A stretch of 64,000 bases of DNA from Escherichia coli (GTDB lineage Bacteria; Pseudomonadota; Gammaproteobacteria; Enterobacterales; Enterobacteriaceae), in the NCBI RefSeq assembly GCF_044647545.1, contig NZ_CP172818.1; one strand, written 5' to 3'. Shown here one piece after another: positions 29,988-35,297 of the stretch (its first letter is position 1; each line of letters opens with the position of its first letter). The notes under the pieces were generated by a model, which saw only the letters and a list, made by a program, of their open reading frames with translations, searched no databases and was not told the origin of the DNA. The translations under genes were made by a program, and so were the position numbers.

Positions 29988-30962
29988 ATGACAAAATTAC
30001 AACTTAAGTACCGGGAGTTAAAAATTATCTCGGTAATCGCTGCCAGTGAAAATATCAGCCATGCCGCGACTGTACTTGGCATCGCACAGGCCAACGTCAG
30101 CAAATATCTTGCTGATTTTGAATCAAAAGTGGGTTTAAAAGTCTTTGACCGAACCACCCGGCAGCTGATGCTCACACCTTTTGGCACCGCGCTGTTACCG
30201 TACATCAACGACATGCTGGACAGAAACGAGCAACTTAATAATTTTATTGCAGATTATAAGCATGAGAAACGTGGTCGGGTCACCATCTACGCCCCAACCG
30301 GCATAATTACCTATTTATCCAAACATGTAATCGATAAAATTAAAGATATCGGTGATATCACCTTATCGCTAAAAACCTGCAATCTTGAGCGTAATGCCTT
30401 TTATGAAGGCGTCGAATTTCCTGATGATTGTGATGTTTTAATCAGCTACGCTCCACCAAAAGATGAATCGCTGGTTGCCAGTTTTATTACCCAATATGCC
30501 GTAACCGCTTATGCCAGCCAGCGCTATCTTGAGAAACATCCCATTAGCCGTCCTGACGAACTCGAACATCACTCCTGTATTTTGATCGACTCGATGATGA
30601 TCGACGACGCGAATATCTGGCGCTTCAACGTCGCCGGGAGTAAAGAGGTGCGGGATTATCGCGTGAAGGGAAATTACGTTTGCGACAACACGCAATCTGC
30701 GCTGGAGCTGGCACGAAATCACCTGGGGATTGTGTTTGCGCCAGACAAAAGTGTGCAGAGCGACCTGCAAGACGGCACGCTGGTGCCCTGCTTTCAGCAA
30801 CCCTATGAATGGTGGCTGGATCTGGTGGCTATCTTCCGTAAACGGGAATACCAGCCCTGGCGGGTCCAGTATGTGCTGGATGAAATGCTGCGTGAAATTC
30901 GCCACCAGCTTGCTCAGTCGCAGCAACTGCGGCCTGAACAAGCGGCGGAAAGCGAAGATTAA
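29988..30962 (+). CDS. yiaU: LysR-family transcriptional regulator
   Basis: 324-aa ORF with N-terminal LysR HTH; divergent-convergent with yiaT/yiaV. Confidence 0.9.
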
Positions 30963-32095
30963 TGATCGAGATAAAGGTAATGCACCCAGCTGGTCATGCG
31001 TAATAGCACTTTGCGCATCACCGAGACATGGCTGAAATGATCAGAGTAAACCGCCACCTGGGCGTAAATACCGTCTGGTAAAGCGCTCAAATCAGTGTGC
31101 TCATCCAGTTCAATGGTCGCGATAACGCCATCTGAACCCGGCGCTGTGTTTAACGTCTGTAAGGTGCCGGTCGACTGATAAGCTCCGCCGGGAACGGCTG
31201 GACTAATGGCTGCCAGCTTACCGCTGAATACCTTACCTGGCAGAGCATTAAACACCACTTCCGCATCGTCGCCAGGAGCCAGTCGCAGCAAGGAGTTCTG
31301 ACGGAACTGCGCCACGATTTGTCGTTTCTGATCGGGTATAAACACCATCACCGGACGTAGCGGCAGCGACGCGGCATAGGTACCCGGACGAATCAGTACC
31401 TGGGTCACATAACCATCGCTCGGCGCACGCACTATCGTCTGCTCAAGGTTATATTTTGCTTCCGCGAGCTGTGCTTTCAGGCTGGCGATTTGAGAATGTT
31501 CACCCAACACCAGGCTATCCAGCTGGCTCTGGATCTGTTTTTGTTCCGCCGCCGATGACTTCACGGAGGCTTCCTGCGCCAGATAATTTTGCCGCGCCAC
31601 ATCGATATCGCGTTCTGAAAACGGGTTTACTTTCGCCTGGCTGCCACGTGCGTAACGCTGATACTCTTTAGCGAATTTATCCCGCGTGGCCTTTGCCTGC
31701 TGAGTATTCGCCGCCATCTCATCTAACTCTGCGCCCAACGCCCGCTGTTTATGTTCTGCGGTAACGATATCCGCCATCAGCCGATCCACCCGCGCCTGAT
31801 AACGCGTCGGGTCCAGTCGAAATAGCACCTCACCTTTTTTAATCAGCGTATTTTTCTTATCCGTCACTTCAATCACCACACCAGTCACCTGTGGGACAAC
31901 AGGAATAGAAATAACCGCTTTTTGCGCTTTAAAGGTATACGGATGGTTATAGTTCATTAACAGAATTAGACCGCTGACAATAAATATGCCACCCAGGGCC
32001 GCTGTGGGAATGGTCCATTTATTTACAGGAATTTTGAAGATCTTAAACATTGCCCATGCAAAAGCCACATAGGTCAAAATAATCAGTAAATCCAT
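30959..32095 (-). CDS. yiaV: HlyD-family membrane fusion protein
   Basis: 378-aa ORF, N-terminal TM, coiled-coil middle; paralog of yibH. Confidence 0.9.
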
Positions 32096-32100
32096 AAGTA

Positions 32101-32326
32101 TTACTCGGCAGAAGAGGTCTTGATGTCGGCGAGCTGTTTCTCCAGCCCGGCAATACGCTGTTGTAGTTGCACAACGCCGGAGGAGTCATGGTTTTGCATT
32201 CCCCATCCCCGCTCCGGGCGGTAAAGCGTGGCCCAAATCCACAAAATGGCCAGATAACATGCAGCGTAAAAAGACTCACCCAACCAGCAACATGAATGGC
32301 GTCGGCATGAGGATGATTACGTTTTG
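32101..32326 (-). pseudogene. yiaW: yiaW (DUF3302 small membrane protein), C-terminal part, separated from its 5' part by IS1
   Basis: Translation ...[46 protein letters not shown] matches the YibI paralog; reading frame runs into the IS1 left end. Confidence 0.8.
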
Positions 32327-32351
32327 GTGATGCTGCCAACTTACTGATTTA

Positions 32352-32657
32352 GTGTATGATGGTGTTTTTGAGGTGCTCCAGTGGCTTCTGTTTCTATCAG
32401 CTGTCCCTCCTGTTCAGCTACTTGACGGGGTGGTGCGTAACGGCAAAAGCACCGCCGGACATCAGCGTTATCTCTGCTCTCACTGCCGTAAAACATGGCA
32501 ACTGCAGTTCACTTACACCGCTTCTCAACCCGGTACGCACCAGAAAATCATTGATATGGCCATGAATGGCGTTGGATGCCGGGCAACCGCCCGCATTATG
32601 GGCGTTGGCCTCAACGCGATTTTACGTCACTTAAAAAACTCAGGCCGCAGTCGGTAA
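32352..32657 (+). CDS. insA: IS1 InsA-like ORF (body in frame with ...[23 protein letters not shown]...; N-terminus out of frame with the canonical GTG start at 32381)
   Basis: ORF-track translation; canonical-looking start GTG 32381 [14 protein letters not shown] reaches TGA at 32423. Confidence 0.7.
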
Positions 32658-33079
32658 CCTCGCGCATACAGCCGGGCAGTGACGTCATCGTCTGCGCGGA
32701 AATGGACGAACAGTGGGGCTATGTCGGGGCTAAATCGCGCCAGCGCTGGCTGTTTTACGCGTATGACAGGCTCCGGAAGACGGTTGTTGCGCACGTATTC
32801 GGTGAACGCACTATGGCGACGCTGGGGCGTCTTATGAGCCTGCTGTCACCCTTTGACGTGGTGATATGGATGACGGATGGCTGGCCGCTGTATGAATCCC
32901 GCCTGAAGGGAAAGCTGCACGTAATCAGCAAGCGATATACGCAGCGAATTGAGCGGCATAACCTGAATCTGAGGCAGCACCTGGCACGGCTGGGACGGAA
33001 GTCGCTGTCGTTCTCAAAATCGGTGGAGCTGCATGACAAAGTCATCGGGCATTATCTGAACATAAAACACTATCAATAA
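32576..33079 (+). CDS. insB: IS1 InsB transposase frame
   Basis: 167-aa ORF ...[21 protein letters not shown]...[48 protein letters not shown]. Confidence 0.85.
32631..32641 (+). promoter_or_regulatory. IS1 programmed -1 ribosomal frameshift motif (A6C) joining insA and insB
   Basis: ttaaaaaactc at the insA/insB junction. Confidence 0.6.
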
Positions 33080-33094
33080 GTTGGAGTCATTACC

Positions 33095-33204
33095 TTACGT
33101 TTTTTAGCAATCAGGTAGGGAATATCATGTAAAATAATAATCCCATAGAATATCACCAGAAATACAAAAATAAGCACTCCCAGTGCAAAATAGTCCAGGA
33201 ACAT
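33095..33204 (-). pseudogene. yiaW: yiaW 5' part ([37 protein letters not shown]...), separated from the 3' part by IS1
   Basis: Reverse complement of 33104-33204 encodes the N-terminus homologous to YibI; joining the two parts minus one TSD copy restores a 109-codon frame. Confidence 0.8.
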
Positions 33205-33317
33205 ATTTCCCTCAAAGAATATAAAAAAGAACAATTAACGCATATTATGAAATGCCATGATGCAGTGCAACTTCCTTATTTATATAACGACATATTGTTT
33301 TTTATATACTTTCTGAA

Positions 33318-33530
33318 ATGTGCTGTCTGGTTTTTCAACAGGACGAGGTTTATCATATTGAAATAGTGGAACTATTGGCCAAACTAATGAATAACTCCAG
33401 TAAAACATCCACAGTACAGATTAAGCGTATTAAACCTTCAATTATCTACCGTTTATTGCTGATTGGCCTCGGATCACCAATGGTGATTTACGGCCTGGTT
33501 CGCCCGCTAACCATCGAAACGCGAGATTAA
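33318..33530 (+). CDS. Hypothetical small ORF with a C-terminal hydrophobic segment (possible small membrane protein)
   Basis: 70-aa ORF; internal Met gives a 47-aa peptide MNNSSKTSTVQIKRIKPSIIYRLLLIGLGSPMVIYGLV...; no recognisable homology. Confidence 0.2.
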   Translation: MCCLVFQQDEVYHIEIVELLAKLMNNSSKTSTVQIKRIKPSIIYRLLLIGLGSPMVIYGLVRPLTIETRD

Positions 33531-33638
33531 ACGCCCGGCAATACACGCCGGGCAGCTTCTGCCAGAAACGCACTTCTGTTGGCGTAGTCTGGGTTATTGC
33601 GCACGTAGGTTTAAAACGTAAATTGTAACAACGTGCGC

Positions 33639-33735
33639 TTTGTTTATGCCGGATGCGGCGTGTACCTTATCCGGCCTACGGTCAGGTTCCCGTAGGCATG
33701 ATAAGACGCGTAAGCGTCGCATCAGGCAATGAATA
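33639..33735. repeat. REP elements downstream of aldB
   Basis: gccggatgcggcgtgtaccttatccggcctacgg and gacgcgtaagcgtcgcatcaggc palindromes. Confidence 0.5.
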
Positions 33736-33758
33736 CCCAATGCGACCAGCTTCTTACA

Positions 33759-35297
33759 TCAGAACAGCCCCAACGGTTTATCCGAGTAGCTCACCAGCAG
33801 GCACTTGGTTTGCTGGTAATGCTCAAGCATCATCTTATGGGTTTCGCGTCCGATGCCCGACTGTTTGTAGCCGCCAAACGCCGCATGTGCCGGGTAAGCG
33901 TGATAACAGTTGGTCCACACGCGCCCGGCCTGAATGCCGCGCCCCATCTTATAGGCCAGATTACCGTTGCGGCTCCAGACACCCGCGCCCAGGCCATATT
34001 GCGTGTCGTTCGCCAGCTCCAGCGCCTCGTCCATCGTTTTGAAGGTGGTTACCGCCAGCACCGGACCAAAAATCTCCTCCTGGAACACGCGCATATTATT
34101 CTGACCAAACAAAATCGTCGGTTCGAGGTAGTAACCGTCTTTCAGTTCGCCTTCCAGCAGCTTGCGCCGCCCGCCGGTGAGCACGTCTGCGCCCTCTTTT
34201 TTACCAATATCAATGTAGTTGAGGATGGTTTCCAGTTGCCCGTGAGAAACCTGCGCCCCCATTTGCGTCACGCTGTCGAGCGGGTTACCGCTGCGAATGC
34301 TTTCGACACGGCGGATGGCGCGTTCCATAAAGCGTTCGTAGATAGACTCCTGCACTAAAGCACGGCTTGGACAGGTGCAAACTTCGCCCTGGTTAAAGGC
34401 AAACAGTGCAAAGCCTTCCAGCGCTTTATCGAAAAAGGCATCTTCTTCATCCATCACATCAGCAAAGAAGATATTTGGGGATTTGCCGCCCAGCTCCAGC
34501 GTCACCGGAATAATGTTTTGCGTGGCGTACTGCATAATTTGTTGGCCCACTTCCGTTGAGCCGGTAAACGCCACTTTGGCGATGCGTTTCGAGGTCGCCA
34601 GATATTCGCCAATTTCTCCGCCCGCACCGTTGACCACGTTCACCACGCCCGGCGGCAGTAAATCACCGACGATTTCCATTAGCAGCAGTACTGAGAGCGG
34701 GGTAAGACGTGCGGGTTTCAGCACCACACAGTTGCCCGCCGCCAGCGCGGGAGCCATTTTCCAGCTCGCCATCAGCAGCGGGAAGTTCCACGGAATAATC
34801 TGCCCCACCACGCCTAACGGTTCGTGGAAGTGATAAGCCACAGTTTCGCTATCCACTTCACTAATACCGCCTTCCTGCGCCCGAATACACGAGGCAAAAT
34901 AGCGAAAATGGTCAATCGCCAGCGGCACATCAGCAGCACTGGTTTCGCGAATGGGTTTGCCGTTATCCCAGGTTTCAGCGGTCGCTAACAGTTCGAGGTT
35001 CTGCTCCATCCGATCGGCAATCTTAAACAGAATCGCCGCGCGATCCTGCACCGAAGTATGCGCCCATTTATCTTTCACTTTGTGCGCAGCATCCAGCGCC
35101 AGATCGATGTCTCGTTTGCCCGAAGACGCCACTTCGCACAGCAGCTGTCCGGTCACCGGCGTCAGGTTCTGGTAATACTCGCCGTCGGCAGGGGCTACCC
35201 ATTCGCCGCCAATAAAGTTGTCGTAGCGGGCTTTTAACTTGAGGGGGAAACCATACTCGCCGGGCTTAATCTGTGCTGAAGGGGGATTATTGGTCAT
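33759..35297 (-). CDS. aldB: Aldehyde dehydrogenase B
   Basis: ORF 33759..35435; start set at [17 protein letters not shown] giving 512 aa. Confidence 0.93.

What the first reader, a model, noticed from the sequence alone, without database searches (positions are those of the whole stretch)
33318..33530. Unannotated-looking small ORF with a hydrophobic C-terminal segment upstream of aldB
A 70-aa ORF (internal start gives 47 aa) encodes ...IKRIKPSIIYRLLLIGLGSPMVIYGLVRPLTIETRD, which resembles a single-pass small membrane protein. It lies between the IS1-disrupted yiaW and REP elements. It may be a genuine small protein or a chance frame.
Basis: seen in the sequence. Interest (0 to 1): 0.25.

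Follow-up and report, generated by a model that had tools for sequence, protein, structure and literature searches.

The report
Deletion-shortened relic of a membrane-protein gene
The small ORF is real but is neither a chance frame nor a dedicated small-protein gene: it is what remains of a conserved 104-residue membrane-protein gene after an in-frame 171-bp deletion, and in E. coli it now drifts almost neutrally, so it is most likely an ordinary decaying gene remnant.

Summary
The ORF is present as described (33318-33530, + strand, 70 aa). The only conserved start is the internal ATG at 33387, which gives 47 aa. ORF length alone is not significant.

Homology settles its origin. At the same position (divergent from yiaW, convergent with aldB), E. 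whittamii, Escherichia sp. E1V33, Citrobacter amalonaticus, Franconibacter and 28 of 5426 complete E. coli genomes carry an intact 103-104-aa gene. It is modelled as a two-helix membrane hairpin. It belongs to an uncharacterised family with 256 cluster representatives and no Pfam or NCBIfam model.

The window's 47-aa ORF equals residues 1-38 plus 96-104 of that protein. Fifty-seven codons were lost between two imperfect 15-bp direct repeats.

- **Full-length alleles:** purifying selection, dN/dS 0.09-0.17.
- **Deleted E. coli alleles:** dN/dS about 0.69, with 12 nonsynonymous and 6 synonymous segregating sites. This fits neutrality and rejects 0.10-0.15. The neighbours yiaV, yiaW and aldB give 0.01-0.05.
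- **Other lineages:** the gene has been destroyed in at least two further ways.

No expression data could be obtained. The verdict is a gene relic, probably non-functional. RefSeq already lists it as a hypothetical protein, but K-12 MG1655 does not annotate it. Interest is low.

The parts
33387..33530 (+). 47-codon ORF plus stop: the in-frame deletion allele (residues 1-38 and 96-104) of an ancestral 104-aa membrane-protein gene.
   Evidence: The MNN.. ATG start is shared by all 19 alleles that retain the 5' end; Escherichia sp. MOD1-EC7003 has lost it by deletion.
33318..33386 (+). 23-codon N-terminal extension that produces the 70-aa reading. It is not part of the ancestral gene.
   Evidence: The ATG is replaced by GTG, or followed by in-frame stops, in several E. 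coli strains. In C. amalonaticus an in-frame stop lies just upstream of the shared MNN start. The ATG lies within the spacer of the published yiaWV promoter.
33375..33377 (+). TTG used by PGAP as an alternative start, giving the 51-aa model WP_001296793.1.
33489..33503 (+). Deletion junction, TAC GGC CTG GTT CGC (Y35 G L V R39). It is the hybrid of two imperfect 15-bp direct repeats that lie 171 bp apart in full-length alleles.
   Evidence: Full-length alleles read TACGGxCTGGTTTGC at codons 35-39 and TACAGCCTGGTyCGC at codons 92-96.
33441..33500 (+). Hydrophobic segment IIYRLLLIGLGSPMVIYGLV. It corresponds to most of helix 1 (residues 17-44) of the ancestral protein.
   Evidence: Kyte-Doolittle mean 1.71. 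AlphaFold2 model of the full-length protein has helices 17-44 and 59-95, pLDDT 87.
33532..33554 (.). G+C-rich hairpin (GCCCGGC..GCCGGGC) directly after the stop codon. It looks like a terminator on the minus strand and may be a shared terminator for the convergent aldB and ancestral gene.
   Evidence: The same sequence follows the full-length E. coli alleles and is lost in K-12-type alleles (12 bases missing plus substitutions).
33301..33329 (-). Published yiaWV promoter CAGACA-17-TATAAA, with -35 at 33329..33324 and -10 at 33306..33301. The spacer also carries an H-NS site in that study.
   Evidence: PMC3946193, with the motif located by reading the sequence.
33094..33204 (-). 5' fragment of yiaW, the divergent neighbour, cut off by IS1.
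32326..33093 (.). IS1 insertion in yiaW with a 9-bp target-site duplication.
33598..33769 (.). REP-type repeats between the ORF and the aldB stop codon.
   Evidence: Sub-threshold naRNA4 (RF02564) matches.

Best explanation
The ORF is a gene remnant. The ancestor of Escherichia, Citrobacter and Franconibacter carried a roughly 104-codon gene convergent with aldB. It encodes a small inner-membrane protein modelled as a two-helix hairpin with a conserved short loop (WN motif) and a GLW.YS.FRP motif. Its biochemical function is unknown.

In the lineage leading to most E. coli and Shigella, 171 bp (57 codons) were lost between two imperfect 15-bp direct repeats (YGLVC / YSLVR). I infer the cause to be replication slippage or short-homology recombination. 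Because the deletion is a multiple of three, the frame stayed open. That left 47 codons: the N-terminal tail, most of helix 1 and the last nine residues.

This loss removed the end of helix 1, the conserved loop and almost all of helix 2, and it lifted protein-level selection. The remnant now accumulates amino-acid changes at close to the neutral rate. In most E. coli it has also lost the hairpin that followed the stop codon.

- **Shown:** synteny, homology, the deletion and its repeats, and the contrast in dN/dS.
- **Inferred:** the deletion mechanism, and that the remnant has no function.
For: **Orthology and synteny**
- Intact 104-aa ORFs occupy the same position in E. whittamii (L006), Escherichia sp. 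E1V33 (L004) and C. amalonaticus (L007). The E. coli sequence matches only residues 1-38 and 96-104.
- A 103-aa Franconibacter homologue (47% identical to the Citrobacter-type family representative) is also convergent with aldB.
- Only 28 of 5426 complete E. coli genomes keep the 171-bp segment, with an annotated 104-aa CDS. About 3793 carry the deleted allele.

**The deletion**
- blastn aligns spacer positions 285-299 twice. The repeats TACGGxCTGGTTTGC and TACAGCCTGGTyCGC flank the missing 171 bp.

**The ancestral gene is a real family**
- A profile search gives 256 representatives at E<=1e-3 and 66 at E<=1e-10, mostly 95-125 aa and matched end to end.
- The AlphaFold2 model has pLDDT 87.

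**Selection**
- Full-length alleles give dN/dS 0.09-0.17.
- Deleted alleles give pN 0.053, pS 0.077 and dN/dS 0.69, against a +1-frame control of 0.71. In the same genomes yiaV gives 0.033, yiaW 0.046 and aldB 0.009.
- Segregating sites are 12 nonsynonymous to 6 synonymous. This fits dN/dS = 1 (P=0.28) and rejects 0.10-0.15 (P=1e-4 to 2e-3).
- Rare variants place charged residues inside the hydrophobic segment: G29E, G36D and L37R.

**Independent decay elsewhere**
- Escherichia sp. MOD1-EC7003 has lost the 5' part.
- Among the 270 E. coli genomes with only a partial match, the four sampled retain about 38 bp of the 3' end next to hicB. In the one inspected (L096), GH127 and MFS genes lie where yiaVW would be.
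- The hairpin after the stop codon is lost in K-12-type alleles.

**Translation signals**
- I see no Shine-Dalgarno-like sequence before the ATG in Escherichia, whereas Citrobacter has AGGA about 7 nt upstream.
- The promoter scan finds no sigma-70-like site on the + strand.
Against: - The frame is intact in all nine E. coli haplotypes examined, and PGAP still calls it a gene. However, only 4.3% of single-base changes create a stop codon, so only 0.1-0.4 nonsense hits per lineage are expected at the observed divergence. Intactness is therefore weak evidence.
- Codons 11-29 (QIKRIKPSIIYRLLLIGLG) carry only one common nonsynonymous polymorphism. This could reflect residual constraint, or simply small numbers.
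- dN/dS of 0.69 rests on 47 codons and 8-9 haplotypes. It cannot exclude weak selection.
- The full-length Escherichia alleles also lack an obvious Shine-Dalgarno sequence yet are under selection, so its absence says little.
- No transcription or translation data could be consulted.
Confidence: 0.8

Rival explanations
1. The 47-aa product is still made and works as a single-pass small inner-membrane protein. It would be a mini-protein born by internal deletion of a two-helix protein, retained or given a new function as a modulator of a larger membrane protein, like other E. coli proteins of 50 aa or fewer.
For: - The frame is open, with an ATG start shared by all alleles that retain the 5' end.
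- It has a credible transmembrane segment (Kyte-Doolittle 1.71) and a positively charged N-terminus, KRIK.
- Codons 11-29 show little variation.
- PGAP predicts it in most carriers.
- The deletion allele is nearly fixed where the locus exists: about 3793 genomes against 28.
Against: - dN/dS is 0.69 and does not differ from an off-frame control or from neutrality. Neighbouring genes and the full-length allele are strongly constrained.
- Eight of 47 residues differ between K-12 and O145:H28.
- Rare variants put charged residues inside the transmembrane segment.
- No Shine-Dalgarno-like sequence and no + strand promoter-like site were found.
- The locus is absent or destroyed in roughly 1600 of 5426 E. 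coli genomes.
- No paper in the held library mentions it.
Confidence: 0.12
2. The DNA persists because it is regulatory or structural. It would serve as part of the yiaWV promoter and H-NS-bound spacer, or of the aldB 3' region, and the ORF would be incidental.
For: - An RpoD SELEX peak, an H-NS site and the yiaWV promoter map to this spacer (PMC3946193).
- A hairpin that looks like a terminator on the minus strand overlaps the ORF's stop codon.
Against: - The mapped promoter lies upstream of the 47-aa ORF (33301-33329), not inside it.
- The ORF region is among the more variable parts of the spacer: 22 variable columns in 146 nt.
- The hairpin has been lost in most E. coli.
- No Rfam family matches the ORF itself.
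- This reading is compatible with the relic explanation rather than an alternative to it.
Confidence: 0.05
3. It is a chance open frame in AT-rich intergenic DNA.
For: 47% of shuffles of the spacer contain an ATG-ORF of at least 47 aa, and 11% contain one of at least 70 aa.
Against: The frame is collinear with the two ends of a conserved 104-aa gene at the same position, 84-87% identical over residues 1-38 and identical over the last nine. That gene is under purifying selection in other species.
Confidence: 0.02
4. It is a type I toxin-like small hydrophobic peptide.
For: The size and hydrophobic segment resemble such toxins. A hicAB module sits next to the locus in some strains.
Against: - It is a single copy.
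- No antisense or sRNA family matches it.
- Its origin from a 104-aa gene is demonstrated.
- hicAB is a type II system inserted independently.
- PADLOC and toxin libraries were not searched.
Confidence: 0.01

Closest known systems
Full-length 104-aa hypothetical membrane protein (RefSeq WP_001064341.1 and WP_001064340.1 in rare E. coli; 104 aa in Citrobacter amalonaticus and C. farmeri; 103 aa in Franconibacter)
   Same: It occupies the same chromosomal position, convergent with aldB. It uses the same start codon. Residues 1-38 are 84-87% identical to the Escherichia full-length proteins (61% to Citrobacter), and residues 96-104 are identical to the Escherichia proteins.
   Different: The window's allele lacks residues 39-95: the end of helix 1, the conserved WN loop and almost all of helix 2. 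It has lost the purifying selection seen on the full-length gene.
Validated E. coli small membrane proteins of 50 aa or fewer, found by conservation screens and initiation-site ribosome profiling
   Same: The length (47 aa), a single predicted transmembrane segment with a basic N-terminus, an intergenic location and the absence of annotation in K-12 all match.
   Different: Those proteins were validated by tagging or ribosome profiling, and many were picked for cross-species conservation (from my own knowledge). This ORF has no expression evidence that I could find and evolves nearly neutrally.
Annotated K-12 gene remnants such as ysaC and ysaD, a few kb away
   Same: They too are short leftovers of larger genes in the same chromosomal neighbourhood.
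   Different: Those are annotated pseudogenes (fragments of larger genes, as I recall). This remnant retains both the original start and the original stop in frame, so it reads as a complete small gene.
Pfam DUF3566 (the name UniRef gives to the Franconibacter daqui member)
   Same: Only the database label on one family member links them.
   Different: hmmscan of that protein and of other members against Pfam-A at E<=10 returned no DUF3566 match. The label is not supported here.

Membership tests
Uncharacterised ~104-aa two-helix membrane-protein family (WP_001064341.1-like) | Orthologous position, convergent with aldB, and sequence homology | tested here: met
   tblastn and blastn against syntenic loci in E. 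whittamii, Escherichia sp. E1V33, C. amalonaticus and full-length E. coli. Franconibacter synteny is shown.
Uncharacterised ~104-aa two-helix membrane-protein family (WP_001064341.1-like) | Complete architecture: helix 1 (17-44), the conserved WN loop, helix 2 (59-95) and the GLW.YS.FRP motif | tested here: not met
   Residues 39-95 are deleted in the window's allele. Only RP.. of the C-terminal motif remains.
Uncharacterised ~104-aa two-helix membrane-protein family (WP_001064341.1-like) | Purifying selection on the protein sequence | tested here: not met
   dN/dS is 0.69 for deleted alleles against 0.09-0.17 for full-length alleles.
Functional bacterial small membrane proteins (50 aa or fewer) | A predicted single transmembrane helix | tested here: met
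   Kyte-Doolittle 19-residue maximum of 1.71 over IIYRLLLIGLGSPMVIYGL.
Functional bacterial small membrane proteins (50 aa or fewer) | The reading frame is conserved under selection across related genomes | tested here: not met
   The frame is open but evolves near-neutrally. The off-frame control gives the same dN/dS.
Functional bacterial small membrane proteins (50 aa or fewer) | Own promoter and ribosome-binding site | tested here: inconclusive
   No + strand sigma-70-like site was found, and I see no Shine-Dalgarno-like motif in the sequence. The selected full-length Escherichia alleles also lack an obvious Shine-Dalgarno sequence.
Functional bacterial small membrane proteins (50 aa or fewer) | Evidence of translation (ribosome profiling, tagging or mass spectrometry) | not testable with these tools
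   The held supplement of the ribosome-profiling preprint is truncated. Other supplements or papers are not held.
Type I toxin-antitoxin toxins | A cognate antisense or overlapping sRNA, and toxicity on expression | not tested
   Only an Rfam scan was run, and it found nothing over the ORF. No toxicity or antisense data were available.
Pfam DUF3566 | A match to the Pfam model | tested here: not met
   No DUF3566 hit at E<=10 for the family members scanned.

The most novel reading that the evidence does not exclude
The 47-aa product is translated and has been retained or co-opted as a single-pass membrane mini-protein. That would make it a documented case of a small protein born by in-frame internal deletion of a two-helix membrane protein. 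The ancestral and derived alleles still segregate within E. coli (28 full-length against about 3800 deleted), so the two forms could be compared directly.
Probability: 0.1. Interest if true: 0.45.

Novelty: new member of a known kind. Interest (0 to 1): 0.17.

Why it matters
Its main value is as a clean annotation lesson. An ORF that looks like a typical small membrane protein, and that PGAP annotates in thousands of RefSeq E. coli genomes, turns out to be an in-frame deletion remnant under no detectable protein-level selection. It should be flagged as a probable pseudogene rather than pursued as a new small protein.

Two smaller points may be useful.
- The ancestral gene defines an uncharacterised family of roughly 100-aa two-helix membrane proteins. 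The family has 256 cluster representatives and no Pfam or NCBIfam model.
- E. coli still carries both the intact and the deleted allele. This natural pair could be used to ask what the intact protein does.

Tried and rejected
- **Rfam scan of 32900-34000 at E<=10.** It found only sub-threshold REP/naRNA4 matches downstream. Nothing matched the ORF, so an RNA-gene reading was dropped.
- **Pfam and NCBIfam scans of the 47-aa protein, the 104-aa protein and 30 family members.** No family matched. The UniRef label 'DUF3566' was not reproduced.
- **PDB sequence profile search and Foldseek against PDB.** No meaningful match (best E 0.4 and 2.7). The afdb50 library was unavailable.
- **Genomic context of distant homologues.** Their neighbours are unrelated, so context gives no functional hint.
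- **Expression evidence.** The held supplement of the Stringer et al. preprint is sorted by coordinate and truncated, so finding nothing there is uninformative. The Weaver and Meydan preprints have no held supplements. The published versions are not held. A full-text search for the peptide and its WP accessions found nothing.
- **ysaE.** I first suspected the ORF might be the named small protein ysaE. MG1655 annotates nothing between yiaW and aldB, so this is not supported.
- **Pantoea PqiB-like hit (E=0.87).** I treat it as probable chance similarity and did not use it.
- **Coverage of Escherichia species.** The state of the locus in E. albertii, E. fergusonii, E. marmotae and E. ruysiae is therefore unknown.

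Full report
**1. The observation**

The ORF exists exactly as described: window 33318..33530, + strand, ATG start, 70 aa. An internal ATG at 33387 gives the 47-aa product MNNSSKTSTVQIKRIKPSIIYRLLLIGLGSPMVIYGLVRPLTIETRD. The hydrophobic stretch is real, with a best 19-residue Kyte-Doolittle mean of 1.71 over IIYRLLLIGLGSPMVIYGL.

The surroundings are also as stated.
- yiaV lies at 30959-32095 on the minus strand.
- yiaW is split by a 768-bp IS1 (32326-33093) with a 9-bp target duplication.
- REP-type repeats lie at 33598-33769 (sub-threshold naRNA4 matches).
- aldB is on the minus strand and ends at 33759.

The ORF is therefore divergent from yiaW and convergent with aldB. It lies past aldB's 3' end, not upstream of aldB in the gene sense.

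Length alone does not make the ORF significant. 47% of shuffles of the 554-bp spacer contain an ATG-ORF of at least 47 aa, and 11% contain one of at least 70 aa.

**2. Annotation status**

The region matches 4842 of 5426 complete E. coli genomes, best at about 97% identity. PGAP annotates a 'hypothetical protein' there in most carriers. Examples are the 47-aa WP_001066080.1 in DH5alpha and ATCC 8739 and the 51-aa TTG-start WP_001296793.1, with other start choices elsewhere.

O157:H7 and O145:H28 records carry no call at this position. The MG1655 reference has no feature between yiaW (b3587) and aldB (b3588).

The exact 47-aa, 51-aa and 70-aa sequences are all in the protein collection. All are named hypothetical or 'membrane protein', and all come from E. 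coli and Shigella. A word-based protein search found relatives only in Escherichia, with no Pfam domain.

**3. What it really is**

I fetched loci around yiaW orthologues from one genome per species and searched them with the ORF. E. whittamii (L006) and Escherichia sp. E1V33 (L004) contain the first 61 residues of the 70-aa reading. They then carry extra sequence. The spacer's positions 285-299 align twice, on either side of that extra DNA.

Citrobacter amalonaticus (L007) has a 104-aa ORF at the same position. Searching with it shows intact 104-aa ORFs in L006 and L004. E. coli matches only residues 1-38.

Laid side by side:
- **Full-length:** MNN..VIYGLV-CGILGMFGYDQVRWNDTVIHGLLALPAGLLAGLSVSVFLTVLIGTIACFGLWLYSLV-RPLTIETRD
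- **Window / K-12:** MNN..VIYGLV-RPLTIETRD

Exactly 171 bp (57 codons) are missing. The break lies between two imperfect 15-bp direct repeats: TACGGxCTGGTTTGC (codons 35-39, YGLVC) and TACAGCCTGGTyCGC (codons 92-96, YSLVR). This is the signature of slippage or short-homology recombination, which is my inference. Because the loss is a multiple of three, the original start and stop remain in frame. That is why the remnant reads as a tidy small gene.

**4. The true start**

The ATG of MNN.. (window 33387) is present in all 19 alleles that retain the 5' end, from Escherichia to Citrobacter. Escherichia sp. MOD1-EC7003 has lost it by deletion.

The ATG of the 70-aa reading (33318) is GTG in many E. 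coli. In O157, O145 and EBJ003-type strains, in-frame stop codons lie between it and the MNN start. In Citrobacter an in-frame stop lies just upstream of the MNN start.

That ATG also lies in the 17-nt spacer of the yiaWV promoter CAGACA-17-TATAAA reported from RpoD genomic SELEX, in a spacer that also binds H-NS (PMC3946193). I located the motif at 33329..33324 and 33306..33301 on the minus strand from the sequence. The 70-aa version is therefore an artefact of an open upstream frame.

**5. The ancestral gene is real and conserved**

A profile of four full-length sequences (A2) was searched against 1.84 billion cluster representatives. It found 256 proteins at E<=1e-3 and 66 at E<=1e-10. Most are 95-125 aa and match end to end.

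Their alignment shows conserved motifs: R[IL]..G.[IF][YF]KL...GL, FG...V.WN, and GLW.YS.FRP. Named members are all 'hypothetical' or 'inner membrane protein', from Citrobacter amalonaticus, C. farmeri and C. telavivensis, Franconibacter, and Rahnella.

In Franconibacter the 103-aa homologue is again convergent with aldB, although yiaVW are absent. More distant homologues have unrelated neighbours.

No Pfam or NCBIfam model matches. That includes DUF3566, a label UniRef attaches to one member. The PDB gives no sequence or fold match.

AlphaFold2 with a 103-sequence alignment gives a confident model (pLDDT 87). It has two long helices, 17-44 and 59-95, joined by the conserved loop, forming a two-helix membrane hairpin. 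The E. coli deletion removes the end of helix 1, the loop and almost all of helix 2.

**6. Distribution within E. coli**

| State of the locus | Complete genomes (of 5426) |
|---|---|
| Full-length allele (171-bp segment present, annotated 104-aa CDS such as WP_001064341.1 or WP_001064340.1) | 28 |
| Deleted allele, match covering at least 80% of the query | about 3793 |
| Partial match only | 270 |
| No match at megablast sensitivity | about 1360 |

The four partial-match genomes that were sampled keep about 38 bp of the ORF's 3' end abutting a hicB gene. In the one inspected (L096), GH127 and MFS genes lie where yiaVW would be.

In another Escherichia lineage (MOD1-EC7003, L005) a different deletion removed the promoter, the start and about 72 codons. 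The gene has therefore been lost in at least three independent ways in the genus.

**7. Selection**

I ran Nei-Gojobori counts on eight E. coli haplotypes carrying the deleted allele.

| Sequence | pN | pS | dN/dS |
|---|---|---|---|
| 47-codon ORF | 0.053 | 0.077 | 0.69 |
| Same DNA, +1 frame (control) | 0.050 | 0.070 | 0.71 |
| Same DNA, +2 frame (control) | 0.071 | 0.028 | 2.6 |
| yiaV, same genomes | 0.0027 | 0.078 | 0.033 |
| yiaW, same genomes | 0.0049 | 0.099 | 0.046 |
| aldB (last 426 codons), same genomes | 0.0010 | 0.106 | 0.009 |

Among nine haplotypes there are 12 nonsynonymous, 6 synonymous and 2 ambiguous segregating sites. That fits dN/dS = 1 (P=0.28) and rejects 0.15 and 0.10 (P=0.002 and 1e-4).

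The full-length alleles give dN/dS of 0.09-0.17 between E. coli, E. whittamii, E1V33 and Citrobacter. This includes the 47 codons that E. coli retained.

K-12 and O145:H28 differ at 8 of 47 residues, while their YiaW proteins are nearly identical. Rare variants in the protein collection put charged residues inside the hydrophobic segment: G29E, G36D and L37R.

That the frame is still open is expected. Only 4.3% of single-base changes create a stop, which gives 0.1-0.4 expected nonsense hits per lineage at 2-6% divergence.

**8. Expression signals**

The consensus scan finds no + strand sigma-70-like site in 33050-33800. I see no Shine-Dalgarno-like motif in the 20 nt before the ATG in Escherichia, whereas Citrobacter has AGGA about 7 nt upstream. 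The full-length Escherichia alleles share this lack, so it is weak evidence.

A 7-bp G+C hairpin directly follows the stop codon in the window (33532-33554; -18.8 kcal/mol in context, z -2.6). It scores as terminator-like on the minus strand. The same sequence follows the full-length E. coli alleles. In K-12-type alleles 12 bases are missing and there are substitutions, which destroys the hairpin. The window thus combines the deleted ORF with the ancestral 3' hairpin, which looks like an intermediate stage of decay.

I could obtain no ribosome-profiling or transcription-start data for the locus. No paper in the library mentions the peptide or its accessions.

**9. Conclusion**

The ORF is an in-frame deletion allele of a conserved but uncharacterised two-helix membrane-protein gene. 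It is nearly fixed in E. coli and Shigella and evolves close to neutrally. I consider it a decaying remnant with no function (confidence about 0.8).

The main rival is a still-translated single-pass mini-protein. I put this at about 0.1. The points in its favour are the conserved start, the low variation in codons 11-29 and the lack of expression data.

The finding is ordinary gene decay. It is useful mainly as an annotation caution and as a pointer to an undescribed small membrane-protein family.

Noticed in passing
window 32326-33093: A 768-bp IS1 is inserted in yiaW with a 9-bp target-site duplication. The best E. coli matches to the spacer are only about 97% identical. Together these suggest a Shigella-like or IS-rich strain that is not in the E. 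coli collection.
   Followed up: partly
window 33532-33554: The hairpin GCCCGGC-N7-GCCGGGC directly after the ORF's stop codon is identical to the sequence after the full-length E. coli alleles. In K-12-type alleles it is destroyed (12 bases missing plus substitutions). It may be a bidirectional terminator shared by aldB and the ancestral gene.
   Followed up: partly
window 33501-33503 (codon 39); L087, L088, L090, L093: Deleted alleles come in two junction types: ..GTT CGC CCG (R39) and ..GTT TGC CCG (C39). Either the deletion happened twice with different crossover points in the same 15-bp repeat, or one C/T change followed a single event.
   Followed up: no
L084:1391-2003; L096:2530-3142: A hicAB type II toxin-antitoxin pair is inserted between the ORF and aldB in some E. 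coli. The HicB CDS overlaps the last bases of the ORF. In L096 only about 38 bp of the ORF's 3' end remain, and GH127 and MFS genes lie where yiaVW would be.
   Followed up: partly
L005:2744-2896 (Escherichia sp. MOD1-EC7003): An independent deletion removes the promoter region, the start codon and about 72 codons of the same gene. Only the last 32 codons remain.
   Followed up: partly
alignments A3 and A4; proteins P0082-P0225: This is a family of roughly 95-125-aa two-helix membrane proteins with a WN loop and a GLW.YS.FRP motif. It has 256 cluster representatives at E<=1e-3 and no Pfam, NCBIfam or PDB match. It appears undescribed.
   Followed up: partly
L068:1051-2715 (Pantoea sp. MAG): A 554-aa PqiB-like gene is divergent from yiaW and has no pqiA-like ORF upstream. 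Its N-terminus (MENNAETTPVNKIKR..) resembles the start of the Citrobacter 104-aa protein (MNNAETSSTVSLKRIK..). This may be chance, or a shared 5' end.
   Followed up: no
window 33301-33329, minus strand: The published yiaWV promoter (CAGACA-17-TATAAA, in an H-NS-bound spacer; PMC3946193) maps here and spans the ATG of the 70-aa reading.
   Followed up: partly
window 33205-33386; spacer positions 91-180: The stretch between the yiaW leader and the MNN start is the most polymorphic substitution-only part of the spacer: 23 variable columns in 90 nt among 11 haplotypes. Only the indel-affected hairpin region just after the stop codon (17 variable columns in 30 nt) is denser. The whole region differs by up to 8.5% between E. 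coli strains, which is unusually high for this species.
   Followed up: no
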